IMG/VR virus record: IMGVR_UViG_2654587772_000001
Direction: 5' to 3' (one strand)
Source of the DNA: a virus
Taxonomy: Duplodnaviria > Heunggongvirae > Uroviricota > Caudoviricetes
Length of the DNA: 36,012 bases
The notes beneath the pieces were generated by a model. The model saw only the letters and a program-made list of their open reading frames with translations, was not told where the DNA came from and made no database searches. Of the stretch, positions 3,079 to 27,716 are shown piece by piece. Numbering within the stretch: position 1 is the stretch's first letter; each line of letters starts with the position of its first letter. Made by a program: the position numbers and the translations under genes.

Positions 3079-3365
3079 ATAATTAACCAGAGTTTTTAAC
3101 GCACTTAATCGTGCGGGGCTTCTTTTTGCCTGGAGAAAGTCATGCATACAGTTTCTGAAAATCAGTGCGGTAAATACGCATTACTGCTGCAACAGGCCTG
3201 AACCGAAGCACAGGCCGACGCTGCGACGCGCTTTTCTTCTCATCTTGACGCCATGATTCGCCACATCACAAAGGCGGAGTTATCCCGCGTGGAGATAGTT
3301 GAGCTGCTCAGTCAGGAGTCGGAAAAATTTCACAATATCGGATTGTCTCGCGGGGAGGTGCTTTG

Positions 3366-3668
3366 ATGTCCTGTTCTCGTTCGGTTGTATTACTGAATAA
3401 CGCCTTAAAAATCGCCGTTATGAAAAATGGTGATTTGTCTCTTATTCAACTTGGTCTTGATAAAGAAAAACGCGAAATAACTGAGTCTGTTATCGCGATT
3501 TATCAGAACGAATTAAATCTCCTGTCTGATGTGGTCAATTTACTTGTTAAACGCGCTGTATTTCACAAGAAAATCTCCTCCGTGGATGAACTGACAAAAT
3601 TAACGACAGAAATTGCCAGCTATTGCGCTGATGAATTTAAAAAACTTAACGACAAAAGGAGCTGGTAA
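3366..3668 (+). CDS. hypothetical early protein (P2 orf81-like)
   Basis: 100-aa ORF from first ATG (the track start at 3363 is TTG); RBS GGGGAGG about 7 nt upstream; stop overlaps next start. Confidence 0.55.
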   Translation: MSCSRSVVLLNNALKIAVMKNGDLSLIQLGLDKEKREITESVIAIYQNELNLLSDVVNLLVKRAVFHKKISSVDELTKLTTEIASYCADEFKKLNDKRSW

Positions 3669-3892: not shown

Positions 3893-4164
3893 GTATTCGT
3901 ATTGAAATTGGCGAACGTTATGTCGTTACCAGTGACAGCTTTCAGTTTATTCTCCACGAGAAAAAGAGAGCGGAAAGCGGTAAAAACGCCGGTCAGGAAT
4001 GGCTGGCGGTGGTTGGTTATTACCCGAAATTAAGCCAGCTCGTTTCCGGCCTGATGCATCACGATATTCTGACCGGAAGCGCAAAATCTTTTGCTGATTT
4101 AAACGCGCAGGTTGAGCAACTCAGCAGGCGTTGTTCAGAGGCTTTTGGCTCACATGGACGTTAA
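3889..4164 (+). CDS. hypothetical early protein (P2 orf83-like)
   Basis: 91-aa ORF, ATGA overlap with the upstream gene; position immediately before A. Confidence 0.6.
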   Translation: MSIRIEIGERYVVTSDSFQFILHEKKRAESGKNAGQEWLAVVGYYPKLSQLVSGLMHHDILTGSAKSFADLNAQVEQLSRRCSEAFGSHGR

Positions 4165-6427
4165 AGCCTCCGGGCGTTTTGTCCCTCCGTCAGCATTTGC
4201 CGCAGGCACCGGTAAGACGTTTACCGGTGCTTATGCATGGAACGCGCCACGCGAGGCCGTCGGGCGCGAAAGACCCCTTACACGTGACGAGATGCGTCAG
4301 GTGCAAGGTGTTTTATCCACGATTAACCGCCTGCCTTACTTTTTGCGTTCGCTGTTTACTTCACGCTATGACTACATCCGGCGCAATAAAAGCCCGGTGC
4401 ACGGGTTTTATTTCCTCACATCCACTTTTCAGCGTCGTTTATGGCCGCGCATTGAGCGCGTGAATCAGCGCCATGAAATGAACACCGACGCGTCGTTGCT
4501 GTTTCTGGCAGAGCGTGACCACTATGCGCGCCTGCCTGGAATGAATGACAAGGAGCTGAAAAAGTTTGCCGCCCGTATCTCATCGCAGCTTTTCATGATG
4601 TATGAGGAACTCTGCGATGCATGGGGTGATGCGCATGGTGAAAAAGAATCGCTGTTTACGGATGAGGCGCAGGCTCACCTCTATGGTCATGTTGCTGGCG
4701 CTGCACGTGCTTTCAATATTTCCCCGCTCTACTGGAAAAAATACCGTAAAGGACAGATGACCACGAGGCAGGCATATTCTGCCATTGCCCGTCTGTTTAA
4801 CGATGAGTGGTGGATTAGTCAGCTTAAAGGCCAGCGTATGCGCTGGCATGAGGCGTTACTGATTGCTGTCGGGGAGGTCAATAAAGACCGTTCTCCTTAT
4901 GCCAGTAAACATGCCATTCGTGATGTGCGTGCGCGCCGCCAGGCAAATCTGGAATTTCTTAAATCGTGTGACCTTGAAAACAGGGAAACCGGCGAGCGCA
5001 TCGACCTTATCAGTAAGGTGATGGGCAGTATTTCTAATCCTGAAATTCGCCGGATGGAGCTGATGAACACCATTGCCGGTATTGAGCGTTACGCCGCCGC
5101 AGAGGGTGATGTGGGGATGTTTATCACGCTGACCGCGCCGTCAAAGTATCACCCGACACGTCAGGTCGGAAAAGGCGAAAGTAAAACCGTTCAGCTTAAT
5201 CACGGCTGGAACGATGAGGCATTTAATCCAAAGGATGCGCAGCGTTATCTCTGCCGTATCTGGAGCCTGATGCGCACGGCATTCAAGGATAATGATTTAC
5301 AGGTCTACGGTTTGCGAGTCGTCGAGCCACACCACGACGGAACGCCGCACTGGCATATGATGCTTTTTTGTCATCCACGCCAGCGTAACCAGATTATCGA
5401 AATCATGCGTCGCTATGCGCTCAAAGAGGATGGCGACGAAAGAGGAGCCGCGCGAAACCGTTTTCAGGCAAAACACCTTAACCGGGGCGGTGCTGCGGGA
5501 TATATCGCGAAATACATTTCAAAAAACATCGACGGCTATGCACTGGATGGTCAGCTCGATAACGACACCGGCAGGCCGCTGAAAGACACTGCAGCGGCTG
5601 TTACCGCATGGGCGTCAACGTGGCGCATTCCGCAATTTAAAACAGTTGGCCTGCCGACAATGGGGGCTTACCGTGAACTACGCAAATTGCCTCGCGGCGT
5701 CAGCATTGCTGATGAGTTTGACGAGCGCGTCGAGGCTGCACGCGCCGCCGCAGACAGTGGTGATTTTGCGTTGTATATCAGCGCGCAGGGTGGGGCAAAT
5801 GTCCCGCGCGATTGTCAGACTGTCAGGGTCGCCCGTAGCCCGTCGGATGACGTTAACGAGTATGAGGAAGAAGTCGAGAGAGTGGTCGGCATTTACGCGC
5901 CGCATCTCGGCGCGCGTCATATTCATATCACCAGAACGACGGACTGGCGCATTGTGCCGAAAGTTCCGGTCGTGGAGCCTTTGACTTTAAAAAGCGGCAT
6001 CGCCGCGCCTCGGAGTCCTGTCAATAACTGTGGAAAACTCACCGGTGGTGATACTTCGTTACCGGCTCCCACACCTTCTGAGCACGCCGCAGCAGTGCTT
6101 AATCTGGTAGATGACGGTGTTATCGAATGGAATGACCAGGAGGTCGTGAGGGCGCTCAGAGGTGCATTAAAACACGGTCTGAGAAGACCAAACCGTCAGC
6201 AAAGAAACGGAAGCCCGTTAAAACCGCATGAAATAGCGCCATCGGCCAGACTGACCCGGTCGGAACGAATGCAAATTACCCGTATCCGCGTTGACCTTGC
6301 TCAGAACGGTATCAGGCCGCAGCGATGGGAGCTTGAGGCGCTGGCGCGTGGTGCAATTGTGAACTATGGCGCAAAAGAATTTCATTACCATGTTCAGAAG
6401 GCGTGGGAAGCATTTTCGAGGTGGTAA
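4154..6427 (+). CDS. A: replication initiation endonuclease A (rolling-circle initiator)
   Basis: Track ORF 4112..6427 starts at TTG; first ATG is 4154 (MDVKASGRFVPP...), about 757 aa; long match to remembered P2 gpA including the HxH metal motif (PHWHMMLF) and the YxxK active-site region (AGYIAKYISK). Confidence 0.9.
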   Translation: MDVKASGRFVPPSAFAAGTGKTFTGAYAWNAPREAVGRERPLTRDEMRQVQGVLSTINRLPYFLRSLFTSRYDYIRRNKSPVHGFYFLTSTFQRRLWPRIERVNQRHEMNTDASLLFLAERDHYARLPGMNDKELKKFAARISSQLFMMYEELCDAWGDAHGEKESLFTDEAQAHLYGHVAGAARAFNISPLYWKKYRKGQMTTRQAYSAIARLFNDEWWISQLKGQRMRWHEALLIAVGEVNKDRSPYASKHAIRDVRARRQANLEFLKSCDLENRETGERIDLISKVMGSISNPEIRRMELMNTIAGIERYAAAEGDVGMFITLTAPSKYHPTRQVGKGESKTVQLNHGWNDEAFNPKDAQRYLCRIWSLMRTAFKDNDLQVYGLRVVEPHHDGTPHWHMMLFCHPRQRNQIIEIMRRYALKEDGDERGAARNRFQAKHLNRGGAAGYIAKYISKNIDGYALDGQLDNDTGRPLKDTAAAVTAWASTWRIPQFKTVGLPTMGAYRELRKLPRGVSIADEFDERVEAARAAADSGDFALYISAQGGANVPRDCQTVRVARSPSDDVNEYEEEVERVVGIYAPHLGARHIHITRTTDWRIVPKVPVVEPLTLKSGIAAPRSPVNNCGKLTGGDTSLPAPTPSEHAAAVLNLVDDGVIEWNDQEVVRALRGALKHGLRRPNRQQRNGSPLKPHEIAPSARLTRSERMQITRIRVDLAQNGIRPQRWELEALARGAIVNYGAKEFHYHVQKAWEAFSRW

Positions 6428-6537
6428 TCTAAATATGAAAAATCTGCACACCGAAACACTCTTGTAGGTTGATAATTTGCAAACTAGGTGGATTTACTCT
6501 TTGATGTGTAAGAAGTTATACTACAAAAAATTGATTT

Positions 6538-7458
6538 ATGGGCTTGGCGATGTATAACGATCCTTATAGTGACCCAAAAGCGTGGGAATCATATTTCAAA
6601 AATATTGTTTGGCTACATTATAAGCCTGCTAACTGTTGTGACTTGCCAGATGAGCATGGAGGCGACTTTGGGCTGGAGTGTTACACTCTGAGTGGTCATG
6701 TTTTTCAGTGTTACTTGCCTGAGCAGTCGAGTGATATTGATAAGCTTTATAAAGCGCAACAAAAAAAGATTTATACTGATATAAAAAAGTTTTCTCAGGA
6801 TAACATTAAAGAATTAGAGGAGCTTTTTGGCACATTAAAAATTAGCCGCTGGATATTAGCTACACCATATAATAAATCGGCGAAATTAAGTCAATATTGC
6901 ACAAAAAAATCATTAAAAGTAAGAGAGTTAGGGATTTCTTACGTTGCTGATGATTTTCAAATAGTAGTGCAAACAGATCGAAATTATATAGAAGAAGCGT
7001 TCTTTCTTCGCAAAAATAACTATCAATTAAGCTTTAATATAAATGATGCGACGGCTGAGAATGCTGCTAACTTTATTAGTGAAAATACATCTTTTTTAGA
7101 TAAGCTAAATTTAAAATTACCTAAGATAAATGATGATGTATCTAGGCAGGGTTTATATAGAGAGTTTTTAATACAAAAATATCTTGATTATCAAAACTTG
7201 CTGGATGCTTTGAAGAGAGACTGGGTTGATATCTATGAAATTATCTATAACTGTGTTCAACATAGAGAACGTAATTTGGTAGGTCTCTTTCTTCTTACTT
7301 CATCAGATGCGAAACCATCAGATATAATGAAAGATGAAATCGCTTTGTTAAAGAAATGTATTGAAGAGGAAGTTAGTACGCTTAAACAGGCTGACTTGGA
7401 TAAGATAACATGGGGAGTTATTTCTGATTGGCTTATAAGATGCCCTTTAGATTTTTAG
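6538..7458 (+). CDS. hypothetical protein, gene 1 of the AT-rich cargo operon (candidate effector component)
   Basis: 306-aa ORF in AT-rich DNA at the tin/old position; no motif recognised by eye apart from a Cys/His-rich N-terminal patch (CCDLPDEHGGDFGLECYTLSGHVFQCY); weak RBS. Confidence 0.6.
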   Translation: MGLAMYNDPYSDPKAWESYFKNIVWLHYKPANCCDLPDEHGGDFGLECYTLSGHVFQCYLPEQSSDIDKLYKAQQKKIYTDIKKFSQDNIKELEELFGTLKISRWILATPYNKSAKLSQYCTKKSLKVRELGISYVADDFQIVVQTDRNYIEEAFFLRKNNYQLSFNINDATAENAANFISENTSFLDKLNLKLPKINDDVSRQGLYREFLIQKYLDYQNLLDALKRDWVDIYEIIYNCVQHRERNLVGLFLLTSSDAKPSDIMKDEIALLKKCIEEEVSTLKQADLDKITWGVISDWLIRCPLDF

Positions 7459-7459
7459 A

Positions 7460-7936
7460 ATGGAAAAGCAAATGCATATAACGATAGATGAAATAATAGG
7501 AAGGCCGTTTACGTTTAATAAACGACCTGAACATTTGCCATGTGATATGAGACCATTGTGGCGTTGCAGTTTGTTGCTGATAATATTCCTTGTCACAGGG
7601 AGAGCTGGTTGCTGTTCTTTAAAAAAACTTCATTTAATTAATTGGATGTTAAAGTCAGAGAATAATGAAGCAATGTTTGAATTCTGGCTTTTAAACAAAG
7701 AAGGTTTAAAGCCTGAAGTAAGATTGGATCCAACTTTAGATAGAGCAATACAGCTATTATTAGCAGAGGATTTTATTTTGAGAAATGAACGAGCGTTCAA
7801 AATAAATGAAAAGGGGCTTAAGGTCGCTGAGAAATTGCTTTCTCTTGATGTGTTCAAAGAAGAAAGGTTGGTGCTAAATAAACATAAGGCTGGACTGTCC
7901 GAAACTAACATTAATAAAATATTTCAGGTGGGTTAA
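7460..7936 (+). CDS. hypothetical small protein, gene 2 of the cargo operon (candidate middle/adaptor component)
   Basis: 158-aa ORF; its ATG lies 1 nt after the gene 1 stop and its stop 1 nt before the gene 3 ATG, indicating translational coupling. Confidence 0.55.
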   Translation: MEKQMHITIDEIIGRPFTFNKRPEHLPCDMRPLWRCSLLLIIFLVTGRAGCCSLKKLHLINWMLKSENNEAMFEFWLLNKEGLKPEVRLDPTLDRAIQLLLAEDFILRNERAFKINEKGLKVAEKLLSLDVFKEERLVLNKHKAGLSETNINKIFQVG

Positions 7937-7937
7937 T

Positions 7938-9959
7938 ATGTCGTTGGAAATTATTTCATTGGAGTTAGTAGCAAATACTTCGGATGGGCGTTATGGTGTT
8001 AGTATACCTTTTTCAAATGGCTTGTTTTTATTAAGAGTTGAGAATTCTCATGGTAAATCAACTTGCATGAATGGGATTGCATATGCACTTGGGATGGAAA
8101 AGGCATTAGGTGTCGGTTCTGGAAAAATCCCATTCCCTCCATCTTTGACTAGAGCACTAACGACAAAAGATAATGTTGAAGTTAGTGTAATATCATCTTA
8201 TGTTTTGCTAAAAATAAAGAATCATAAGGGAATAGAAGCATCTTTGAAAAGGAATATTATCGGTCACGATAATAATAATGTTATTTATATAGATGAGAAG
8301 AATAATGTAAAAAGTAAGAGTGGTACTTATTTTTTACATAGAGAGGGCGATACTGAAAGGGAACGTGGTTTCTATAAGTGGTTAGCTGATTTTATAGGTT
8401 GGAGTTTGCCAAATGTTCCAAACCATAATGGGAAGGACACTATTCTTTATCCATCCGTACTTTTCCCTGCATGGTATGTTGAGCAAAAAAAAGGATGGTC
8501 GTCAATTATGGCGACTGTACCAACACAATTTGGAATTAAAGAGCCAAAGAAAAGAGCTCTAGAATTTTTAATGTCTCTTGATGTTAATGATAATATTTTA
8601 TTGCGTAGTTCGTTAAGAAATGAACTTGATATTATTTATCATGATTGGAAGTTAATTAAACACAATGCAGAAGTTATTGCTTCTAAATTGTCGTCAGTTG
8701 TCACAGGGATTCCTGAACAACCAGTGGCAAAATTTGATCATTATAAGATAGATTTGATTATTAAAAATGGTAGCGTCGTTAGATCTATTGTTGATGTTCG
8801 TAATGAACTGGAAAAAGAGTTGCAAGAAATTAAGTTTGACACTCTTGGTGAGCAAGAAGAACAAACTTTACAATTATCAGTGGTTAAGTTATTAGGTCAA
8901 AAAAATGATGAAATTAACTCTCTGGAATTAAAGATTAAAGAGATTTGTGAGCATAGAAGTTATATTCAATATCAAATTCAGGCGACCAAAAACAGATTGT
9001 ATAATCTGTTGGAAGATAAAAGGAAGTATGAAGATTTAAAGAAAATATCATCTTCGGATGCGTATAAGTCAACAGATTTAATGTCAAATATTTGTCCGAC
9101 TTGTGGTGCAAGTTATAATGATAATTTGCTAAGTTTTTCATCGCAAGAAAATCTGATGACATATGAAGATAGTTTGAACTTTATTAAAGAGCAAGTAAAA
9201 GCATTTGAGTTTGTTCTGTCGGATAGTGAAAAGCAATTAAAGCTTAAAGATGTTGAGAGGAGTGATTTAGAGGGGGAAATAGCCAAGATTAGAGTTGATA
9301 TTAATGCATTAAGGGAGTCAAAATATCCCTCAATGGTTGTTCAGGAGGAGTTTCTGAGACGTAAAATAAACATTGAGAATAAAATTAATGCCATTAACGA
9401 TGGCATTAAAAGTATATTGGACATTAGACTGGAGTTGGATTCATTACACCGTAGATATAAAAAGCTTATCGCGAAAAGAAAAGGGTTGCCAGATAATTTC
9501 TTGTCGCGTAATGATGCCGATAAGTTAAAATTTCTTAATAAAGAAGTCGTTGCACGATTAGAAAAATATAATTTTACAAGTTTTGATTCTAAACTTGTGT
9601 CAATATCAGAAGATAATTACTTACCTACTAGGGAAGGATATGATATAGGTTTTGACACATCAGCTAGTGATGGAATAAGAATCATTTGGGGTTATTTAAT
9701 AAGTTTATTTGTTGTTGGTTCTAAATTTCAAACAAATCACCCTGGATTGATTGTGTTTGATGAGCCTCGTCAACAAGAAGCAAATAAAGTAAGTTTTGCC
9801 GAGTTACTTAAAGATGCTGCAGAAACAACAAAAGGACAAGGGCAGATCATTTTTGCTACATCAGAAGATGAAAATGTCTTAAAAGAGGCATTAGAAGGGT
9901 ATGACTATACAATGATATCCTTTGATAAGAACAATGGGAAATTGTTGAGGAAATTATAA
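7938..9959 (+). CDS. SMC/Rad50-like ABC ATPase with coiled coil and CxxC hook (LmuB/DdmC-like), gene 3 of the cargo operon
   Basis: 673 aa; Walker A VENSHGKST (aa 34-42); long E/K/L-rich heptad-like region aa 280-540; CPTC at aa 386-389 (nt 9093..9104) mid coiled coil; signature-like SASDG and Walker B GLIVFDEP (aa 603-610); SD AGGTGG upstream. Confidence 0.75.
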   Translation: MSLEIISLELVANTSDGRYGVSIPFSNGLFLLRVENSHGKSTCMNGIAYALGMEKALGVGSGKIPFPPSLTRALTTKDNVEVSVISSYVLLKIKNHKGIEASLKRNIIGHDNNNVIYIDEKNNVKSKSGTYFLHREGDTERERGFYKWLADFIGWSLPNVPNHNGKDTILYPSVLFPAWYVEQKKGWSSIMATVPTQFGIKEPKKRALEFLMSLDVNDNILLRSSLRNELDIIYHDWKLIKHNAEVIASKLSSVVTGIPEQPVAKFDHYKIDLIIKNGSVVRSIVDVRNELEKELQEIKFDTLGEQEEQTLQLSVVKLLGQKNDEINSLELKIKEICEHRSYIQYQIQATKNRLYNLLEDKRKYEDLKKISSSDAYKSTDLMSNICPTCGASYNDNLLSFSSQENLMTYEDSLNFIKEQVKAFEFVLSDSEKQLKLKDVERSDLEGEIAKIRVDINALRESKYPSMVVQEEFLRRKINIENKINAINDGIKSILDIRLELDSLHRRYKKLIAKRKGLPDNFLSRNDADKLKFLNKEVVARLEKYNFTSFDSKLVSISEDNYLPTREGYDIGFDTSASDGIRIIWGYLISLFVVGSKFQTNHPGLIVFDEPRQQEANKVSFAELLKDAAETTKGQGQIIFATSEDENVLKEALEGYDYTMISFDKNNGKLLRKL

Positions 9960-10082
9960 ACTTTTATGTTGCTGCATTAGAATGCATGATTATTGTTTAT
10001 CTGTTAAGAGTGCTCCGTGCCAGTGTCGGCGCGGAGAAATCATGTCATGCACCTGCATTAAAACCGACCCATGAAGCGGGCG

Positions 10083-10101
10083 GGCGAGGCGGGGAAAGCA
10101 C
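10083..10101. other. cos site (19-nt cohesive end GGCGAGGCGGGGAAAGCAC)
   Basis: Sequence matches the P2 cohesive-end sequence as remembered; located in the GC-rich intergenic region upstream of Q, as in P2. Confidence 0.45.
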
Positions 10102-10243
10102 TGCGCGCTGGCGGTGGTGCTGATTTTATTTTTTCAGCGTCTGAGCGCGTTGTGATGGCGTTTAGATTGTTCGCCGGGGCGTTGGTGTGTATGCGGGCTG
10201 TTTTGTGCGGTGGTGAGCGTGTGAGGGCGTGATGGCGGGGTGT

Positions 10244-10265
10244 AAAAAAGCCGCCTACAGGCGGC
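10244..10265 (-). terminator. rho-independent terminator downstream of Q (minus strand)
   Basis: GC hairpin GCCGCC-TACA-GGCGGC followed, on the minus strand, by a run of six T. Confidence 0.5.
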
Positions 10266-10270
10266 GATGT

Positions 10271-11305
10271 TCAGCCGTTGTCAGTGTCCAGTGAGTAGTT
10301 TTTAAAGCGGATGACCTCCTGACCGAGCCAGCCGTTTATCTCGCGGATCCTGTCCTGTAACGGGATAAGCTCATTGCGGACAAAGACCTTTGCCACTTTC
10401 TCTATATCACCCAGCGATCCGACGTTCTCCGGCTTGCCACCCATCAACTGAAAGGGGATGCGGTGCGCGTCCAGCAGGTCAGCGGCGCTGGCTTTTTTGA
10501 TATTAAAAAAATCGTCCTTCGTCGCCACTTCACTGAGGGGGATAATTTTAATGCCGTCGGCTTTCCCCTGTGGGGCATAGAGAAACAGATTTTTAAAGTT
10601 ATTGCGGCCTTTCGACTTAACCATGTTTTCGCGTAGCATTTCGATATCGTTGCGATCCTGCACGGCATCAGTGACGTACATGATGTATCCGGCATGTGCG
10701 CCATTTTCGTAATACTTGCGGCGGAACAGCGTGGCCGACTCATTCAGCCAGGCAGAATTAAGGGCGCTGAGATATTCCGGCAGACCGTACAGCTCCTGAT
10801 TAATATCCGGCTCCAGCAGGTGAAACACGGAGCCGGGCGCGAAGGCTGTCGGCTCGTTGAAGGACGGCACCCACCAGTAAACATCCTCTTCCACACCACG
10901 GCGGGTATATTTTGCCGGTGAGGTTTCCAGTCTGATGACCTTACCGGTGGTACTGTAACGCTTTTCCAGAAACGCATTGCCGAACACCAGAAAATCCAGC
11001 ACAAAGCGGCTGAAATCCTGCTGGGAAAGCCACGGATGCGGAATAAACGTTGAAGCCAGAATATTGCGTTTGACGTAAATCGGTGAGCTGTGATGCACGG
11101 CAGTACGCAGGCTTTTTGCCAGACCGGTAAAGCTGACCGGCGGCTCATACCATCTGCCGTTACTGATACATTCGACGTAATCCAGAATGTCACGGCGGTC
11201 GAGCACCGGAACCGGCTCACCAAAGGTGAATGCCTCCATTTTCGGGGCGCTGGCGGCCATTGTTTTTACCGCAGGTTGCGGTGTTTTCCCTTTTTTCTTG
11301 CTCAT
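10271..11305 (-). CDS. Q: portal protein Q
   Basis: 344-aa ORF matching P2 gpQ in length and sequence; ATGA overlap with the P stop. Confidence 0.95.
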   Translation of the reverse strand: MSKKKGKTPQPAVKTMAASAPKMEAFTFGEPVPVLDRRDILDYVECISNGRWYEPPVSFTGLAKSLRTAVHHSSPIYVKRNILASTFIPHPWLSQQDFSRFVLDFLVFGNAFLEKRYSTTGKVIRLETSPAKYTRRGVEEDVYWWVPSFNEPTAFAPGSVFHLLEPDINQELYGLPEYLSALNSAWLNESATLFRRKYYENGAHAGYIMYVTDAVQDRNDIEMLRENMVKSKGRNNFKNLFLYAPQGKADGIKIIPLSEVATKDDFFNIKKASAADLLDAHRIPFQLMGGKPENVGSLGDIEKVAKVFVRNELIPLQDRIREINGWLGQEVIRFKNYSLDTDNG

Positions 11306-13172: not shown

Positions 13173-13250
13173 TGATGGCGGAGGATGCGCATCGTCGGGA
13201 AACTGATGCCGACATGTGACTCCTCTAATCACTATTCAGGACTCCTGACA

Positions 13251-13865
13251 ATGGCAAAAAAAGTCTCAAAATTCTTTCGTATCGGCGTTGAGGGTGACAC
13301 CTGTGACGGGCGTGTCATCAGTGCGCAGGATATTCAGGAAATGGCTGAAACCTTTGACCCGCGTGTCTACGGTTGCCGCATTAACCTGGAACATCTGCGC
13401 GGCATCCTGCCTGACGGTATTTTTAAACGTTATGGCGATGTGGTCGAACTGAAGGCCGAAAAGATTGATGACGATTCGGCGCTGAAAGGCAAATGGGCGC
13501 TGTTTGCGAAAATCACCCCGACCGATGACCTTATCGCGATGAACAAGGCCGCGCAGAAGGTCTATACCTCAATGGAAATTCAGCCGAACTTTGCCAACAC
13601 CGGCAAATGTTATCTGGTGGGGCTGGCCGTCACCGATGACCCGGCAAGCCTCGGCACGGAATACCTGGAATTCTGCCGCACGGCAAAACACAACCCTCTG
13701 AACCGCTTCAAATTAAGCCCTGAAAACCTGATTTCAGTGGCAACGCCCGTTGAGCTGGAATTTGAAGACCTGCCTGAAACCGTGTTCACCGCCCTGACCG
13801 AAAAGGTGAAATCCATTTTTGGCCGCAAACAGGCCAGCGATGACGCCCTGATGACGAACTGCTGA
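13251..13865 (+). CDS. O: capsid scaffolding protein/protease O (shorter than canonical)
   Basis: First ATG 13251 (MAKKVSKFFRIGVEGDTCDGR...) gives 204 aa; track ORF starts upstream without a plausible start; N-terminus matches P2 gpO. Confidence 0.85.
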   Translation: MAKKVSKFFRIGVEGDTCDGRVISAQDIQEMAETFDPRVYGCRINLEHLRGILPDGIFKRYGDVVELKAEKIDDDSALKGKWALFAKITPTDDLIAMNKAAQKVYTSMEIQPNFANTGKCYLVGLAVTDDPASLGTEYLEFCRTAKHNPLNRFKLSPENLISVATPVELEFEDLPETVFTALTEKVKSIFGRKQASDDALMTNC

Positions 13866-19235: not shown

Positions 19236-19775
19236 GTGACATGTAAAAAGAATGAAGGTGATGTTGTAAAGAAAATTGAACTGGTGCTGAAAACAATCGC
19301 GCGGACGGATTCTTATTTAAATTCAGCCAATACTAAATCAACGATATTACTAAGCTTAGCTTCAGCTGTAATTGTTGCTATTATAGCAAATTTTGACAAA
19401 GTTATATGTCTGGTAGATGTGGATAGTGATAGGATTTTTCTCTCTCTTTTATTGATTGTAATAGTTGGGTTATTGGTGATCTCTTTGTTATTTTCTCTAA
19501 AAGGTGTTACTCCAAATATCTCTAAGAGTGATAAGGAGAATACTTTTTCATTTGTTGATATATCAAGTTATTATAGTAGTCTTGATTGCTATTCTAGTAG
19601 TTTTAAGTCAGTGAGTGATCTGGAGTTGTTGGAGCAGTTAATTGCATTGAATTATACTCTTTCCAGAGCATTAACTAGCAAATATGAGATGCAAATCATA
19701 GCCATTGACTTTATAAAAATGGCTGTTTATGTGCTTTGTTTTTTAATATATGTGGTTGCTTTATCTAATTGGTGA
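19236..19775 (+). CDS. small membrane protein with 3 predicted TM helices (candidate membrane effector, SLATT/PycTM-like)
   Basis: 179-aa ORF from GTG 19236 (no in-frame ATG until near the end); SD AGGAAGG upstream; hydrophobic stretches STILLSLASAVIVAIIANF, IFLSLLLIVIVGLLVISLLFSL, MAVYVLCFLIYVVALS; AT-rich. Confidence 0.55.
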   Translation: MTCKKNEGDVVKKIELVLKTIARTDSYLNSANTKSTILLSLASAVIVAIIANFDKVICLVDVDSDRIFLSLLLIVIVGLLVISLLFSLKGVTPNISKSDKENTFSFVDISSYYSSLDCYSSSFKSVSDLELLEQLIALNYTLSRALTSKYEMQIIAIDFIKMAVYVLCFLIYVVALSNW

Positions 19776-19785
19776 AGGTTTTTGT

Positions 19786-21138
19786 ATGTCCATAAAGAGT
19801 ATTTATTTAGTATTAGATGAAAGGCTGGAAGAGATAATTTCAAAATCAAAATCGCAATCAGTCCATGATGCTATATTTGAATCAGTGGATAATACACAGT
19901 TGGCCACGGAGAGCTTAAGTAAATCTTCTGGTTTCGTAAGAAGTTCTATTTCATTGAAAAAAGATGTAGGTGGAGCTGATGTTCAAAGTTATCAGGTGAA
20001 AGATATTGTTAGAAATAAATTTGGCAAGCACGGTCCACTCATGACAAGTTTTGGATGTCATCCGGACTTTAATAAAATGGATGATGGTGAGGTGAGAAAT
20101 GGTTATTCCATTACCATGTTTATGGATATAATCGGCTCAACTAAACTTGGGGTTGTTTTTCCACCAGAAATAGTATTTAGAATCAAAAATGATATTATAA
20201 GATGTGCGATCGAAACAGTGAATGCATTTGATGGTCACGTCCATAGAATTATGGGTGATGCAGTAATGGCATTTTTCCGAAGTAATGACCGATATAAAAA
20301 CAATAAGATCGCAGACAGTGCAATTGATGCAATAAACTGTGCCGTTGTTTTGATTGAAATGTTCAAGGGGGTTGTTATACCTAAATTGAGTGATTTGGGA
20401 GTTGACGAAAACTTAGGAATAAGAATTGGTCTTGACTATGGCCCTCACGAGGAAGTGGTGTGGTCAAAATATGGCTATATGGAAAGTCATGAAGTGACTG
20501 CGACATCTTTTTTTGTTGATGTTGCGGCAAAACTTCAGCAAAAAGCTCCTAAAAACTCAATTATGATAGGTGCAAGTTTTGTAGAGTTATTAGGCCTTGA
20601 TGATGTTCAATTAAAACATAAAATTAACAGAAACAATGGCGTAGAACACAAGGAATTGTATTTAACCCCAAATTATAAAGATGCTTCAGGCAAACCAATA
20701 AATTACAGACAATATGTATTTGATAACGAACGTTATTGTAATTTGCTGCCTATAAATGATGAGGGGGGTAAACTCATTGTAAAAGCAACGCTTAAGAAGA
20801 GTGAAAATGATGTGTCTGATGATGAGTATATTTGTTGTTCTCGAATGATAAAAAAGGGTATGGGTATCTCATTTAAAGGGTACTATTACTCACAAGAACA
20901 GTACTCTAATCCCAGGTTCAAATTTCGTGTCGAAAATACAGGTCCTGATGCAGGTAATGTTGATAATAAGGGTAATCATGAGTCATATGAGGTAGCAAGG
21001 TACACTGGCGAGCGTTATTTTGCTAAGCATTGGGAAGATTGTCATTACAAAGGACTGCATTATATGTTTGTATCTTTTTGGAATGGGGATCAATTAATAG
21101 AAAGGGAGAGGTGTTTTTCAGTTTTTATTAACGATTAA
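19786..21138 (+). CDS. class III nucleotidyl cyclase-domain protein (candidate PycC-like cyclase)
   Basis: 450 aa from ATG 19786 (SD GAAGG 8 nt upstream; track start 19750 overlaps the upstream gene); motifs SITMFMDIIGSTKL (aa 108-121), HRIMGDAVMAFF (153-164), GIRIGLDYGP (211-220), SFFVDVAAKL (241-250) resembling the FxDIxGFT / IGDxxMA / GIHxGxV / VNxAARL blocks of adenylyl/guanylyl-type cyclases. Confidence 0.7.
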   Translation: MSIKSIYLVLDERLEEIISKSKSQSVHDAIFESVDNTQLATESLSKSSGFVRSSISLKKDVGGADVQSYQVKDIVRNKFGKHGPLMTSFGCHPDFNKMDDGEVRNGYSITMFMDIIGSTKLGVVFPPEIVFRIKNDIIRCAIETVNAFDGHVHRIMGDAVMAFFRSNDRYKNNKIADSAIDAINCAVVLIEMFKGVVIPKLSDLGVDENLGIRIGLDYGPHEEVVWSKYGYMESHEVTATSFFVDVAAKLQQKAPKNSIMIGASFVELLGLDDVQLKHKINRNNGVEHKELYLTPNYKDASGKPINYRQYVFDNERYCNLLPINDEGGKLIVKATLKKSENDVSDDEYICCSRMIKKGMGISFKGYYYSQEQYSNPRFKFRVENTGPDAGNVDNKGNHESYEVARYTGERYFAKHWEDCHYKGLHYMFVSFWNGDQLIERERCFSVFIND

Positions 21139-25057: not shown

Positions 25058-25659
25058 TGCATAAAGCAATATTAAATAGTGAGCTCATTGCAACAAAGGC
25101 AGGGGATGTTACCGTTTATAACTATGATGGTGAAACACGGGAATATATTTCCACTTCAAATGAATATCTTGCCGTTGGTGTCGGCATTCCGGCATGTTCC
25201 TGTTTAGATGCCCCTGGCACACATAAGGCTGGTTATGCAATCTGCCGTTCTGCAGATTTTAACTCATGGGAATATGTGCCAGACCATCGCGGTGAAACGG
25301 TCTATAGCACCGAAACAGGAGAATCAAAAGAAATCACCGCTCCGGGTGATTACCCTGAAAATACAACCACTATCGCCCCATTAACGCCATATGATAAATG
25401 GGATGGTGAGAAATGGGTGACGGATACCGAGGCACAGCATAGCGCCGCAGTAGATGCAGCAGAAGCACAGCGCCAGTCGCTGATTGATACTGCAATGGCT
25501 TCCATCAGTCTGATTCAACTGAAATTGCAGGCCGGACGTAAACTGACGCAGGCAGAAACAACCCGGCTTAACGCTGTGCTGGATTACATTGACGCGGTGA
25601 CGGCAACAGATACCAGCACCGCGCCGGATGTCATCTGGCCTGAACTGCCGGAGGCGTAG
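25057..25659 (+). CDS. G: tail fibre assembly chaperone (G / Tfa)
   Basis: 200-aa ORF with start overlapping the H stop; Tfa-like sequence with conserved C-terminal region (RLNAVLDYIDAVTATDTSTAPDVIWPELP). Confidence 0.8.
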   Translation: MHKAILNSELIATKAGDVTVYNYDGETREYISTSNEYLAVGVGIPACSCLDAPGTHKAGYAICRSADFNSWEYVPDHRGETVYSTETGESKEITAPGDYPENTTTIAPLTPYDKWDGEKWVTDTEAQHSAAVDAAEAQRQSLIDTAMASISLIQLKLQAGRKLTQAETTRLNAVLDYIDAVTATDTSTAPDVIWPELPEA

Positions 25660-26083
25660 GCCATTCAATATCTGGTGCACTGGAGGTATCAACCAGCTCC
25701 AGTGCATCCAGATAATCCAGCCACAAATTATATTGCGCCAGTTCCTCACCTTTCAGACGACCAATAGCGGCTTTACCGGGCCATTGCTTACTGTTCATGT
25801 ATTCGTTGGCCTGGTTAATTAGTAGCTGTCTTTCTGATTCAGTAATTTCAATAAGCTCTTCATGCGTGGGTGGAGGAATATCTGCCCACGCAGGCAGCCC
25901 ATCATCTCCGGCAATACGGATTTTTCCTTGTGGCGGTTCAGCCATAAACTCACTGATAATATTTTGATTTACTTCCTTAGCGTCTGATAAATCCCATCCC
26001 TCTGATTTATATTTATCAATCATATCCACAGGGAAAAAAGCATTATGCCTTGCGCTATAAACATATTCGTTCATATAAATCAC
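25631..26083 (-). CDS. alternative tail fibre assembly chaperone (inverted orientation)
   Basis: 150-aa ORF convergent with G, with related C-terminus (YNLWLDYLDALELVDTSSAPDIEWPTPP). Confidence 0.7.
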   Translation of the reverse strand: MIYMNEYVYSARHNAFFPVDMIDKYKSEGWDLSDAKEVNQNIISEFMAEPPQGKIRIAGDDGLPAWADIPPPTHEELIEITESERQLLINQANEYMNSKQWPGKAAIGRLKGEELAQYNLWLDYLDALELVDTSSAPDIEWPTPPAVQAR

Positions 26084-26094
26084 CCTGAATAAAA

Positions 26095-26463
26095 TTACTC
26101 ACCAACAGCCCACCAACTGTAATTCATCGATACCGTGTCGCTGGTTGATGACGTTCTGTAAGCAGAATTAAAGCCGGTTAACGTTGGGCCTTCTGCAGTC
26201 ATCACGAACCCTCGCCCAGCGCCTAAAGGCGCACCGCCATCACCAGAATGAGTAAGCATGGCGCAGTCCGCTTTTTTGGGGAAAGGGATGCTGAATGTAA
26301 TTCTCATTGTTTGCGTCGATAATGTCGGCGTAACCGCACCACGACCATATTGCAGGATTTTCCCGTTGGGTAATTTCATCCATCCATCACCACTGGCAAA
26401 AGAGGCCATGTCCGGTATCTGATTTTCCCCTGTCCCCACATCCCGTTTTGCCGCTTCTCTCAA
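26095..26463 (-). CDS. alternative tail fibre C-terminal segment (promoter-less and start-less; would fuse to H after inversion)
   Basis: Open frame on the minus strand running to the crossover site at about 26466 with no credible own start; Gly/Thr/Ser-rich fibre-tip-like sequence. Confidence 0.6.
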   Translation of the reverse strand: MREAAKRDVGTGENQIPDMASFASGDGWMKLPNGKILQYGRGAVTPTLSTQTMRITFSIPFPKKADCAMLTHSGDGGAPLGAGRGFVMTAEGPTLTGFNSAYRTSSTSDTVSMNYSWWAVGE

Positions 26464-26480
26464 ACCAACGTTTTATGGAA
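26455..26480. repeat. invertase crossover site (hix/gix-like), right copy
   Basis: TTCTCTCAAACCAACGTTTTATGGAA; inverted-repeat partner of 24548..24573. Confidence 0.45.
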
Positions 26481-26570
26481 TCGGTTAAATATGATGTTGA
26501 AAGAAGGGAGTGTCCTAGTATTGATTGTTAGATAAAAATGGAAAGTGCTGATTGTAACGGTATATTTTAA

Positions 26571-26598
26571 GATGGTAACACCAAATGGTGCTACCATC
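26571..26598. terminator. candidate bidirectional rho-independent terminator
   Basis: Hairpin GATGGTAACACC-AAAT-GGTGCTACCATC followed by TTTATT on the + strand and by an A/T-rich tract on the - strand; lies just downstream of the minus-strand 105-aa gene. Confidence 0.4.
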
Positions 26599-26606
26599 TT
26601 TATTAG

Positions 26607-26924
26607 TTATCTGTTCCTTCTGAGGATTCCGCTACTCCCTTGTGTTGTAGGGTTTAATTTTTTCCAATAATGATAACCTTGTGATGTAATCCTTAGAGAG
26701 GCAGTATCTACACTCCATCCATCAATACTTTCAGGAGAACCATCGAAGATTACCTTTCCTGTAAGATACCCATCGTCATGCAGAAAGGCGATATATCCAT
26801 AAACTTCTTTTAAATCACCAATTTCATTGACTAGGCGTTCCCACGCTTGAACAGTGATTCTCTCTGGATAGGCTTCGACAAAATATTTCAGTGTGGTAGT
26901 TTTTTTATTGGTATCGATGTTCAT
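26607..26924 (-). CDS. hypothetical protein (AT-rich moron between the invertible segment and the invertase)
   Basis: 105-aa ORF with ATG at 26924 and a good SD (AAGGAAA) upstream on the minus strand; AT-rich; no recognisable motif. Confidence 0.5.
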   Translation of the reverse strand: MNIDTNKKTTTLKYFVEAYPERITVQAWERLVNEIGDLKEVYGYIAFLHDDGYLTGKVIFDGSPESIDGWSVDTASLRITSQGYHYWKKLNPTTQGSSGILRRNR

Positions 26925-27122
26925 CAGATTTTCCTTTTATTGAGGTCAACCTATCTTACCATACTTATTTGTTTCACATGGGAATGCTAAGTGGGCTATG
27001 TATCCACTATCAGTAAATATTCTTATCCAGCAAGATTACTGTAACTGAGAGCTCCATAGCCTTGTCCGCTTGTACATATATAGATAATTCTGTGTCATTA
27101 TTCTGTTTTTATAGGGATTTTT

Positions 27123-27716
27123 ATGCGTATAGGTTATGTTCGTGTATCAACAAATGACCAGAACACGGAATTGCAGCGTAACGCGCTCGAGTGCGCAGGA
27201 TGTGAGCTGATTTTTGAGGATAAAATCAGCGGCACGAAGTCCGACCGACCGGGGCTGAAAAAACTGCTCAGAACATTATCAGCAGGTGACACTCTGGTAG
27301 TCTGGAAGCTGGACAGGCTGGGGCGTAGTATGCGGCATCTGGTCATTCTGGTTGAGGAACTGCGCGAACGCGGCATTAATTTTCGCAGCCTGACAGATGC
27401 TATTGATACCAGCACGCCGATGGGGCGTTTTTTCTTTCATGTGATGGGTGCCCTGGCTGAAATGGAACGAGAACTCATTGTCGAACGGACTCGGGCCGGG
27501 CTGGAAGCGGCCAGAGCCAAAGGTCGTATTGGTGGCAGACGTCCTAAACTCACCACGAGTGAGTGGGAGCAGGTCGGGCGTTTGCTGGCTGCAGGGGAGT
27601 CACGTCAACGCGTGGCACTGATTTTTGATATTGGCCTGTCCACGCTCTATAAAAAATTTCCCTCATCAGCGATAAAGAATAAATTGTGTCATCCCTTAGC
27701 CAACCGGGACAAATAG
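27123..27716 (+). CDS. serine DNA invertase (Hin/Gin/Pin/Cin family)
   Basis: 197-aa ORF; N-terminal resolvase catalytic domain with GYVRVST-DQ (Ser nucleophile), LVVWKLDRLGRS, and a C-terminal HTH; closely resembles Hin/Gin. Confidence 0.9.
   Translation: MRIGYVRVSTNDQNTELQRNALECAGCELIFEDKISGTKSDRPGLKKLLRTLSAGDTLVVWKLDRLGRSMRHLVILVEELRERGINFRSLTDAIDTSTPMGRFFFHVMGALAEMERELIVERTRAGLEAARAKGRIGGRRPKLTTSEWEQVGRLLAAGESRQRVALIFDIGLSTLYKKFPSSAIKNKLCHPLANRDK
27684..27710 (+). promoter_or_regulatory. late-promoter upstream element (candidate PF) TTGTGTCATCCCTTAGCCAACCGGGAC
   Basis: 21/27 identical to the element upstream of O (13146..13172); ends about 66 nt before the FI start; lies inside the 3' end of the invertase gene. 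Confidence 0.45.

What the first reader, a model, noticed from the sequence alone, without database searches (positions are those of the whole stretch)
7938..9959. 673-aa ATPase has a Rad50-type layout: Walker A, CxxC hook mid coiled coil, signature and Walker B at the C-terminus
Read from the translation: P-loop VENSHGKST at aa 34-42; a long heptad-like, E/K/L-rich region at about aa 280-540; a CPTC motif at aa 386-389 (nt 9093..9104) almost exactly halfway, where Rad50/SbcC carry the zinc hook; then SASDG (ABC-signature-like) and GLIVFDEP (Walker B plus catalytic Glu) at aa 575-610. A split ATPase head with a hook-tipped coiled coil suggests a DNA-end or DNA-shape sensing clamp rather than a transporter.
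Basis: seen in the sequence. Interest (0 to 1): 0.7.

Follow-up and report, generated by a model that had tools for sequence, protein, structure and literature searches.

The report
Lamassu defence ATPase LmuB in prophage

Summary
All four motifs lie at the stated residues. The single CPTC sits in the apex loop between two heptad-periodic helical arms. CPxC, Walker A, the signature-like SASDG and Walker B DEP are kept in essentially all 109 full-length homologues.

The interpretation, a Rad50-type DNA-end sensor rather than a transporter, is also right, but the protein has a known name. PADLOC profiles call the three co-directional, tightly coupled genes LmuA (306 aa), LmuC (158 aa) and LmuB (673 aa; E 1e-98, full length). 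The AlphaFold model of the ATPase matches solved Lamassu LmuB chains best, with Rad50 next. LmuA has a restriction-endonuclease-fold N-terminal domain and a helical C-terminal bundle, and its best structural match is solved LmuA.

The cassette is a 33% GC island between the gpA replicase and gpQ portal genes of a P2-like prophage, the known P2 defence hotspot. Rousset et al. 2022 list it there as system #51 ("AAA_13/DUF3732", 79 occurrences).

The likely mechanism is taken from solved Lamassu complexes. A hook-joined LmuB dimer plus LmuC sequesters LmuA. Sensing of DNA ends releases LmuA, which oligomerises into an active nuclease and aborts the infection.

Two features are mildly unusual: an invariant canonical Walker B glutamate, and an effector domain that Pfam does not annotate. 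I found no experimental test of this sub-family.

The parts
6450..10250 (.). Low-GC island (about 0.32-0.33 GC against 0.52-0.57 in the flanks) between the gpA-like replication endonuclease gene (4112-6427) and the gpQ-like portal gene (10271-11305, minus strand). This is the P2 defence hotspot.
   Evidence: Composition profile. ORF map. RefSeq annotation of identical DNA in E. coli ST2747. Definition of the hotspot in Rousset 2022, PMC9122126.
6493..6522 (+). Candidate sigma-70 promoter (TTTACT, 18-nt spacer, TATACT) upstream of lmuA. Weak evidence only.
   Evidence: Consensus scan, 9 of 12 matches. The region is AT-rich, so such matches are common.
6538..7458 (+). lmuA, the effector gene (306 aa). 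RefSeq and most homologues start at Met5, nt 6550.
6538..7032 (+). LmuA N-terminal effector domain (aa 1-165), restriction-endonuclease (PD-(D/E)xK) fold. Invariant residues are D43, E47, Q57, C58, Y59, K77, D81 and K84.
7054..7440 (+). LmuA C-terminal six-helix bundle (aa 173-301), followed by the invariant tail DWLIRCPLDF. Presumed docking and oligomerisation domain.
   Evidence: AF2 helices 173-182, 185-197, 201-228, 230-253, 260-278 and 284-301. Short-Lamassu LmuA C-terminal domains are described as bundles of 5-6 helices in PMC12663957.
7460..7936 (+). lmuC, the middle component (158 aa). Its start lies 1 nt after the lmuA stop.
   Evidence: PADLOC LmuC PDLC03871, E 2.5e-23. Genes of 153-154 aa sit in the same position and are 30-38% identical in Pantoea dispersa and Pseudomonas cavernae.
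7938..9959 (+). lmuB, the SMC/Rad50-like sensor ATPase (673 aa) and the subject of the finding. Its ATG lies 1 nt after the lmuC stop, with AGGTGGG upstream.
   Evidence: PADLOC LmuB PDLC03863, E 1.1e-98, aa 1-669. Foldseek: 9uxh_F 3e-14, 9hqx_B 2e-13, 9hqu_A 2e-12, 9ux7_A 6e-12, then Rad50 7zr1. Junction sequence read.
8037..8063 (+). Walker A P-loop, VENSHGKST (aa 34-42; K40).
   Evidence: Position. G39, K40 and S41 are invariant. The Rad50 and SMC head N-termini align here.
8481..8486 (+). E182-Q183, the probable Q-loop glutamine at the end of strand 180-182. Inferred.
   Evidence: Invariant in 41 sequences. Strand position from the AF2 model. The assignment rests on position only.
8583..9053 (+). 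Ascending coiled-coil arm (aa 216-372), with a beta insert at aa 254-283.
   Evidence: AF2 helices. Heptad periodicity is enriched. Column conservation is low, 0.27-0.55.
9054..9161 (+). Apex module (aa 373-408) holding the CPTCG zinc-hook motif (CPTC at nt 9093-9104).
   Evidence: C386, P387 and C389 are invariant. Conservation peaks locally at aa 341-420. The hook profile hits the Rad50 hook structures 1l8d and 6zff.
9162..9566 (+). Descending coiled-coil arm (aa 409-543).
   Evidence: AF2 helices 409-460, 464-515 and 524-543. Heptad periodicity. Profile hits to keratin and lamin coiled coils.
9660..9674 (+). Signature-like motif SASDG (aa 575-579) at the N-terminus of helix 576-597.
   Evidence: A576, S577 and D578 are invariant. 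SASDG is present in 103 of 109 homologues. It lies 28 residues before Walker B, as in ABC ATPases.
9744..9767 (+). Walker B with a canonical catalytic glutamate, GLIVFDEP (aa 603-610; D608, E609).
   Evidence: Strand 604-608 in the model. DEP occurs in 109 of 109 homologues and DQP in none.

Best explanation
The ORF is lmuB, the Rad50-like sensor ATPase of a short, type II Lamassu anti-phage system. The system has three genes, lmuA-lmuC-lmuB at 6538-9959, and sits in the cos-proximal gpA/gpQ hotspot of a P2-like E. coli prophage.

Shown here:
- the split ABC head
- the antiparallel heptad arms
- an invariant CPxC at the apex
- profile and fold membership of all three proteins
- a conserved three-gene operon

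Inferred by homology to the solved Salmonella, Vibrio and Bacillus Lamassu complexes:
1. Two LmuB protomers pair at the apex. Each gives two cysteines to one zinc ion.
2. The folded LmuB dimer, together with one LmuC, sequesters the C-terminal helical bundle of one LmuA. This keeps LmuA's restriction-endonuclease-fold domain monomeric and inactive.
3. LmuB and LmuC bind DNA ends or replication intermediates of an invading phage.
4. ATP-driven head engagement opens the complex and releases LmuA.
5. Free LmuA oligomerises into an active nuclease that cuts DNA indiscriminately, aborting the infection. This protects the lysogen population and the prophage's clonal copies in sister cells.
For: PADLOC gives LmuB E 1.1e-98 over the full length, LmuC 2.5e-23 and LmuA 1.1e-29. 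No other defence family is hit.

The LmuB AF2 model (pLDDT 84.7) matches solved LmuB chains best: 9uxh_F, 9hqx_B, 9hqu_A and 9ux7_A, ahead of Rad50 and SMC. The LmuA model (pLDDT 89) matches solved LmuA best. Its N-terminal domain matches the FokI, CdiA-CT, Mrr-like and Avs4 nuclease domains.

The motifs are invariant in 41 aligned and 109 retrieved homologues.

The same order of genes, about 300, 154 and 680 aa, recurs with 29-48% identical LmuB next to an integrase in Pantoea dispersa and on a MobI-bearing element in Pseudomonas cavernae.

The cassette is a low-GC island in the P2 hotspot. Rousset 2022 Table S5B lists these exact proteins as P2-hotspot system #51, 'AAA_13/DUF3732', with 79 occurrences.

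Published work supports the mechanism. The LmuB zinc hook, ATP binding and head engagement are required for defence; LmuA is sequestered and then forms a tetramer (10.1101/2025.03.14.643221). DNA-end sensing is reported in PMC12663957 and in 10.1101/2025.06.23.660979.
Against: I found no experimental test of this particular cassette. It is absent from the systems cloned by Rousset. It is not the E. coli SE15 Lamassu-Mrr that Millman tested.

Sequence similarity to any solved LmuB is too low for phmmer or a family profile to detect. The link to solved structures therefore rests on PADLOC profiles and on fold comparison, where TM scores are only 0.4-0.45 because the arms bend differently.

Zinc binding and hook-mediated dimerisation were not modelled. 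The apex has low pLDDT (47-56). It is a 36-residue module rather than a tight Rad50-like hairpin.

The LmuA beta-3 strand carries QCY instead of (D/E)xK, so nuclease activity is not assured.

The Walker B glutamate is canonical here, unlike the E-to-Q variants in the Salmonella and Vibrio systems. The ATP-cycle details may therefore differ.
Confidence: 0.9

Rival explanations
1. It is a genuine Rad50/SbcC-type DNA-repair ATPase encoded by the phage, working with an Mre11/SbcD nuclease on DNA ends for recombination or repair.
For: The layout is Rad50-like. There are weak profile hits to Rad50 heads (E 2e-3) and to the Rad50 zinc-hook crystal structures. AAA_23 is hit in 25 of 41 family members. 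Rad50 chains rank just below LmuB in Foldseek.
Against: No Mre11/SbcD-type phosphoesterase gene lies next to it. The two upstream genes hit LmuA and LmuC and have no Pfam family. The protein is 673 aa, within the LmuB size range (short about 600 aa, long about 800 aa). Rad50 is described as larger because its coiled coils are longer. Solved LmuB chains score better than every Rad50 chain. The gene sits in an accessory low-GC defence hotspot, not among the phage replication genes.
Confidence: 0.03
2. It is the ATPase of a different SMC/ABC-type defence system, such as PARIS AriA, Septu PtuA, Gabija/OLD, Wadjet JetC, RloC or DndD. The LmuB profile match would then reflect only the shared ABC head.
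For: AriA and JetC chains appear in the Foldseek list at E about 1e-5 to 1e-8. AriA heads give marginal profile hits (E about 0.05).
Against: The PADLOC match covers aa 1-669 of a 610-position LmuB model at 1e-98, and all ten PADLOC hits are LmuB models. The partners match LmuA and LmuC, not Toprim, HNH or JetA/B/D. Solved LmuB chains are the top four fold hits.
Confidence: 0.02
3. It is LmuB, but the CPTC is not an intermolecular Rad50-type zinc hook. It might be a local zinc knuckle, a redox or structural motif, or a contact point for LmuA or LmuC, with LmuB dimerising by other means.
For: The hook-region profile also hits generic CPxCG zinc knuckles (PF0385, RNF4 RING, C2H2 fingers) with scores similar to Rad50. 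The apex is a 36-residue, low-confidence module, not a tight hairpin. Short Lamassus can have zero, one or two CxxC motifs, and the Vibrio LmuB dimerises with none. In the Salmonella map the zinc ion was not resolved.
Against: The apex has only two invariant Cys. The arms and apex have no other conserved Cys, and the apex has no His (C337 is 29% conserved). A single chain therefore cannot complete a four-ligand site. The Rad50 hook hits extend about 50 residues into the flanking helices, not just across the knuckle. Zinc-hook mutation abolishes defence in the Salmonella system, where the two hooks lie side by side.
Confidence: 0.12
4. It is the ATP-binding subunit of a membrane ABC transporter.
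For: It has Walker A, a signature-like motif and Walker B. Rousset's table notes '1 TM in protein 2', meaning LmuC.
Against: About 330 residues of coiled coil are inserted between the two half-heads. No ABC_tran or permease family is hit. The hydrophobic stretch of LmuC lies in a conserved soluble-protein motif, RPLWR.SLL.II, shared with distant LmuC homologues.
Confidence: 0.005

Closest known systems
Salmonella enterica LmuACB Lamassu (PDB 9hqu, 9hqx, 9hr5; Li et al., bioRxiv 10.1101/2025.03.14.643221)
   Same: It has the same three-gene order, lmuA-lmuC-lmuB. LmuB is about 630-670 aa with Walker A K40, short coiled coils and a zinc hook. LmuA has a PD-(D/E)xK-fold N-terminal domain and a helical C-terminal domain. 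Its chains are among the top fold hits for both LmuB and LmuA.
   Different: Sequence identity in the structural alignment is only about 12%, and sequence searches do not detect it. Salmonella LmuB has the E-to-Q Walker B variant, whereas this clade always has DE. LmuA here is shorter (306 against about 390 aa), has no Pfam Cap4 match, and carries QCY on beta-3.
Vibrio cholerae DdmABC (Lamassu Vc-Cap4; PDB 9nxx, 9ny1, 9ny5 and 9uxh; Haudiquet et al. PMC12663957; Li M. et al. 10.1101/2025.06.23.660979)
   Same: It is a short, type II Lamassu. 9uxh_F is the best fold hit for LmuB and 9nxx the best for LmuA. It is activated by DNA-end sensing and LmuA tetramerisation.
   Different: The Vibrio LmuB has lost the CxxC hook, while this one keeps an invariant CPxC. 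The Vibrio effector is a Cap4 nuclease, while this one is an unannotated restriction-endonuclease-fold domain. The Vibrio system is chromosomal rather than in a P2 prophage hotspot.
E. coli Lamassu Ec-Lipase, the 'Hydrolase + SMC' system of the REL606 P2 hotspot (Rousset pFR106; validated by Haudiquet et al.)
   Same: It is an E. coli three-gene short Lamassu with a zinc-hook LmuB. Rousset's table assigns the 'Hydrolase + SMC' cassette to the P2 hotspot.
   Different: Its effector is a lipase or hydrolase, not a nuclease-fold domain. I inferred from matching descriptions that pFR106 and Ec-Lipase are the same system; I did not check the sequences.
Rad50-Mre11 / SbcCD DNA-end repair complex
   Same: It has a split ABC head, an antiparallel coiled coil, a CPxCG hook at the apex and DNA-end sensing. 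It is the proposed evolutionary source of Lamassu. The hook profile hits 1l8d and 6zff.
   Different: This locus has no Mre11/SbcD nuclease partner. Its arms are much shorter. The effector is released rather than held at the DNA end. The outcome is cell death rather than repair.

Membership tests
Lamassu LmuB (SMC/Rad50-like sensor ATPase) | Full-length match to curated LmuB profiles | tested here: met
   PADLOC PDLC03863 at E 1.1e-98 covers aa 1-669 against model positions 1-604 of 610. Nine further LmuB models also hit.
Lamassu LmuB (SMC/Rad50-like sensor ATPase) | ABC ATPase head split by an antiparallel coiled coil, total length about 600-800 aa | tested here: met
   AF2 model. Heptad periodicity in the arms only. 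673 aa. The four best Foldseek PDB hits are solved LmuB chains.
Lamassu LmuB (SMC/Rad50-like sensor ATPase) | Walker A Gx4GK[S/T] and Walker B hhhhD[Q/S/T/E] for the short type (PMC12663957) | tested here: met
   NSHGKST and LIVFDE. DEP occurs in 109 of 109 homologues. E is one of the allowed residues, but it differs from the Q of the solved Salmonella and Vibrio proteins.
Lamassu LmuB (SMC/Rad50-like sensor ATPase) | CxxC zinc hook at the coiled-coil apex (present in many but not all LmuB) | tested here: inconclusive
   The sequence and position criteria are met. There is one invariant CPxC in the predicted apex, with weak Rad50-hook profile hits. Zinc binding and the intermolecular geometry could not be tested.
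Lamassu system (type II, lmuA-lmuC-lmuB) | An adjacent, co-oriented lmuA with an N-terminal effector domain and a C-terminal docking domain | tested here: met
   PADLOC LmuA at 1.1e-29. The fold matches solved LmuA. There is a restriction-endonuclease-fold N-terminal domain and a six-helix C-terminal domain. The gap to lmuC is 1 nt.
Lamassu system (type II, lmuA-lmuC-lmuB) | A small middle gene, lmuC, between lmuA and lmuB | tested here: met
   PADLOC LmuC at 2.5e-23. The position and size are conserved at distant loci L002 and L003.
Lamassu system (type II, lmuA-lmuC-lmuB) | Anti-phage or anti-plasmid protection that depends on the LmuB ATPase and the LmuA effector (abortive infection) | not testable with these tools
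   I found no experimental report for this cassette. Only the context is supportive: the P2 hotspot and a low-GC island.
Lamassu system (type II, lmuA-lmuC-lmuB) | An LmuA1:LmuB2:LmuC1 sequestration complex that releases LmuA on sensing DNA ends | not tested
The stoichiometry is taken from published structures.
Rad50/SbcC | An adjacent Mre11/SbcD phosphoesterase nuclease partner | tested here: not met
   The neighbouring genes are LmuA, LmuC, gpA and gpQ. There are no Metallophos or SbcD hits.
Rad50/SbcC | A significant match to Rad50/SbcC family profiles or sequences | tested here: inconclusive
   AAA_23 scores 18.9 bits, below its gathering threshold of 27, although 25 of 41 relatives hit it. 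Rad50 PDB sequences match only at E 2e-3 over aa 10-51.
Canonical SMC (hinge type) | A globular hinge dimerisation domain at the apex, with kleisin/KITE partners | tested here: not met
   The apex is a 36-residue loop with CPTC. No SMC_hinge hit was found.
ABC transporter nucleotide-binding subunit | A contiguous nucleotide-binding domain with a partner or fused transmembrane domain | tested here: not met
   About 330 residues of coiled coil split the head. No ABC_tran or permease hits were found.

The most novel reading that the evidence does not exclude
This clade may be a mechanistically distinct Lamassu variant, for two reasons.

First, its LmuB keeps a hook and also an invariant canonical Walker B glutamate (DEP in 109 of 109). 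The solved Salmonella and Vibrio LmuBs are described as carrying an E-to-Q substitution that slows hydrolysis. This LmuB may therefore hydrolyse ATP efficiently and act as a resettable sensor rather than a one-way switch.

Second, its effector is an unannotated restriction-endonuclease-fold domain with QxY in place of (D/E)xK on beta-3 and a conserved Lys on the following helix. The same domain is fused to STAND-TPR and iHD-CE conflict proteins. It could have a catalytic arrangement or a substrate different from the Cap4-type LmuA nucleases.
Probability: 0.2. Interest if true: 0.4.

Novelty: already known. Interest (0 to 1): 0.15.

Why it matters
The result matters mainly for annotation. RefSeq labels all three genes "hypothetical protein", or at best "coiled-coil domain-containing protein" or "ATP-binding protein", in the 32 complete E. 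coli genomes that carry the cassette. They are in fact a complete Lamassu defence system. The same P2-like prophage also carries a Pycsar system, so it arms its host with two abortive-infection modules.

There is one scientific point. This hook-bearing clade with a DE Walker B is a natural counterpart to the E-to-Q LmuBs studied so far. Li et al. explicitly left open whether LmuB ATP hydrolysis matters for defence, and this clade could be used to test that.

Tried and rejected
- Single-sequence phmmer of LmuB against PDB sequences gave only noise, ribosomal protein L4 at E 0.3.
- The full-family profile against PDB gave keratin and lamin coiled coils and only marginal Rad50 head and hook hits. 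It found none of the solved LmuB chains. The link to solved LmuB therefore comes from fold search alone.
- NCBIfam gave nothing for any of the three proteins.
- Pfam gave only AAA_23, below threshold, for LmuB and nothing credible for LmuA or LmuC.
- Searching papers for the RefSeq accessions returned nothing.
- The supplements of Haudiquet et al. are not held as text, so I could not read off the DefenseFinder clade or subtype.
- A profile search with the LmuA N-terminal domain, meant to reach a Pfam-annotated relative, returned only unannotated LmuA-like proteins of about 300 aa. The exhaustive search added a few long fusion proteins. Their only annotated parts are STAND/TPR and iHD-CE domains downstream of the effector domain.
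- No sequenced phage isolate carries similar DNA.
- I considered that the cassette might be Rousset's validated 'three genes with no predicted domain' system that protects against P1. I rejected this because the protein sequences are absent from the table of cloned systems, and the cassette is listed separately as uncloned system #51.
- I considered that it might be Millman's tested Lamassu-Mrr from E. coli SE15. I rejected this because SE15 is not among the 32 genomes with this DNA. A distant protein-level relationship was not tested.
Full report
**1. The observation**

ORF 7938..9959 (+) encodes a 673-aa protein.
- VENSHGKST at aa 34-42
- CPTC at aa 386-389 (nt 9093-9104)
- SASDG at aa 575-579
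- GLIVFDEP at aa 603-610

CPTC is the only CxxC, and the protein has only four cysteines. With four cysteines placed at random, a CxxC appears in 1.8% of trials and falls within the apex segment in 0.08%.

A database search found 113 relatives, nearly all 663-685 aa, from Enterobacterales, Pseudomonas, Shewanella and other Proteobacteria. In an alignment of 41 of them, down to about 28% identity, these residues are invariant:
- G39, K40, S41 (Walker A)
- E182, Q183
- C386, P387, C389
- A576, S577, D578
- D608, E609, P610, Q612

Across all 109 full-length relatives there is exactly one CxxC. It is always CPxC (CPTCG in 66) and lies at 53-57% of the length. Walker B is always DEP and never DQP.

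The AlphaFold2 model (mean pLDDT 84.7) shows an N-terminal half-head (aa 1-215), ascending helices (216-250, 284-300, 308-372) and a low-confidence apex loop (373-408) that holds CPTC. Descending helices follow (409-460, 464-515, 524-543), then a C-terminal half-head (554-673). The 3.5-residue hydrophobic periodicity is significant in the arms only. Conservation is low along the arms and rises again around the apex, at aa 341-420. The one correction is that the coiled coil begins near aa 216 and contains a small beta insert at 254-283.

**2. What it is**

The gene is the last of three co-directional genes with 1-nt intergenic gaps: 6538-7458 (306 aa), 7460-7936 (158 aa) and 7938-9959. They lie inside a 33% GC island flanked by DNA of 52-57% GC.

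PADLOC profiles identify the three proteins as LmuA (E 1.1e-29), LmuC (2.5e-23) and LmuB (1.1e-98, full length). No other defence family is hit. Pfam and NCBIfam are nearly silent, which explains why RefSeq calls all three "hypothetical protein".

Foldseek of the LmuB model against the PDB ranks four solved Lamassu LmuB chains first: 9uxh_F at 3e-14, 9hqx_B, 9hqu_A and 9ux7_A. Rad50 (7zr1) comes next, followed by YydD, SMC, MukB, JetC and AriA.

The same order of genes, about 300, 154 and 680 aa, occurs at distant loci. One is next to an integrase in Pantoea dispersa (LmuB 29% identical). The other is on a MobI-bearing element in Pseudomonas cavernae (48%). LmuA and LmuC are recognisably conserved at these loci. 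The three genes therefore form a mobile unit.

**3. Context**

The window is a complete P2-like prophage, identical in layout to one in E. coli ST2747 beside yegR. The cassette lies between the gpA replication endonuclease and the gpQ portal gene. Phage P2 carries old and tin at this position, which Rousset et al. defined as the P2 defence hotspot.

Their Table S5B lists these very protein sequences as system #51, "AAA_13/DUF3732", with 79 occurrences. The sequences are not in their table of cloned systems.

The cassette is present at 99.4% identity or more in 32 of 5,426 complete E. coli genomes, always on the chromosome. It is absent from sequenced phage isolates.

**4. The hook**

Reviews and structural papers state that LmuB, like Rad50, has an ABC head, a coiled coil and, in many members, a CPxCG zinc hook. 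In the Salmonella system the hook is required for defence. Short Lamassus carry zero, one or two CxxC motifs.

A profile of aa 340-430 of this family hits the P. furiosus Rad50 hook crystal structures (1l8d at E 0.0034, 6zff at 0.017). That alignment spans about 50 residues around KCPVCGRELTD. Generic CPxCG zinc knuckles score similarly, so the sequence evidence alone is weak.

A stronger argument is that the apex has only two invariant cysteines and no other conserved metal ligand. A four-ligand zinc site therefore needs a second protomer. I could not model a dimer, so hook function remains inferred.

**5. Mechanism**

This is inferred from homologues. In the solved complexes, two folded LmuB protomers and one LmuC sequester the LmuA C-terminal domain near the hook. 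The complex binds DNA ends. ATP-driven head engagement releases LmuA, which forms a cyclic tetramer whose paired nuclease domains cut DNA, and this produces abortive infection. The anatomy found here fits that scheme piece by piece.

**6. Differences worth noting**

- Walker B is a canonical DE throughout this clade. The solved Salmonella and Vibrio LmuBs carry E-to-Q and hydrolyse ATP at about 1 per minute. The published short-Lamassu consensus, D[Q/S/T/E], does allow E.
- The position where ABC ATPases usually have the H-loop histidine reads ATSE (aa 640-643), which is nearly invariant. I assigned this by position only.
- The LmuA effector domain has no Pfam family in any homologue. Its beta-3 strand carries invariant QCY rather than (D/E)xK, alongside invariant D43, E47 and K77.
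- An exhaustive profile search finds 761 clusters with this domain. Most are LmuA-like proteins of about 300 aa. A few carry the domain at the N-terminus of 1,083-1,207-aa proteins with STAND NTPase and TPR domains or iHD-CE domains. This fits a modular conflict-system effector.

**7. Verdict**

However, the protein belongs to a well-described family, is matched by a curated defence-database profile, and was already catalogued at this exact locus in 2022. This specific sub-family appears untested experimentally. Its DE Walker B and unannotated effector give it modest residual interest.

Noticed in passing
window 19236-21138 (+): A second low-GC island (GC 0.34-0.36) lies between the tail/virion-morphogenesis genes and baseplate gene V. 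It encodes a Pycsar system: PycTM effector (179 aa, PADLOC 8.5e-29) and PycC cyclase (462 aa, 1.6e-128). The prophage therefore carries two abortive-infection systems.
   Followed up: partly
window 13185-13865 (+) and about 3142-3366 (+): RefSeq annotation of the co-linear ST2747 prophage marks the capsid scaffold gene as partial, missing its C-terminus. It also marks a DUF2732 gene as a pseudogene with an internal stop. The prophage may be defective. This was read from the annotation of L001 and not verified further.
   Followed up: no
LmuA N-terminal domain, window 6538-7032; proteins P0364, P0396, P0398: The unannotated restriction-endonuclease-fold effector domain of this LmuA also occurs at the N-terminus of proteins of about 1,100-1,200 aa. 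These carry nSTAND_NTPase5 plus TPR repeats, or iHD-CE/HD-CE domains, which is an Avs/NLR-like conflict architecture.
   Followed up: partly
window 7426-7455 (LmuA aa 297-306): LmuA ends in a near-invariant C-terminal tail, DWLIRCPLDF. D297, W298 and R301-F306 are invariant in 35 sequences. C302 is kept even in a 30%-identical Pantoea homologue, where the tail reads RCNLDF. This may be a docking peptide for LmuB or LmuC near the hook. Its role is unknown.
   Followed up: no
window 9855-9866 (LmuB aa 640-643): After the last core strand of the head, where ABC ATPases usually carry the H-loop histidine, this family has a nearly invariant ATSE and no His. Together with the canonical Walker B glutamate, this suggests an unusual catalytic-site make-up. 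The assignment is by position only.
   Followed up: no
window 8697-8786 (LmuB aa 254-283): The AF2 model places a small beta-hairpin insert that interrupts the ascending coiled-coil arm. This could correspond to one of the coiled-coil 'folding points' described for Salmonella LmuB. Not examined.
   Followed up: no
window 7460-7936 (LmuC): Rousset's table flags '1 TM in protein 2'. The hydrophobic stretch, LWRCSLLLIIFLV, is part of a motif (RPLWR.SLL.II...SLKKL) shared with 30-38% identical LmuC homologues. It is more likely a buried core helix than a membrane anchor.
   Followed up: partly
window 25631-27716: A recombinase-family (invertase-like) gene at 27123-27716 (+) lies beside oppositely oriented tail-fibre assembly and gp53-like genes. 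This is the usual invertible host-range segment of P2-like and Mu-like phages (annotation).
   Followed up: no
NZ_CP069459.1 (E. coli FDAARGOS_1249), hit H9: In one genome the island matches in two pieces with an IS5-family transposase between them. The lmuA-lmuB stretch itself is intact there.
   Followed up: no
Rousset 2022 Table S5B, system #51: The representative LmuB sequence in that table starts at Met44 (MNGIAYALG...) and so lacks the Walker A loop. This is probably a mis-called start or a variant allele (WP_106121066) in the source genome.
   Followed up: no
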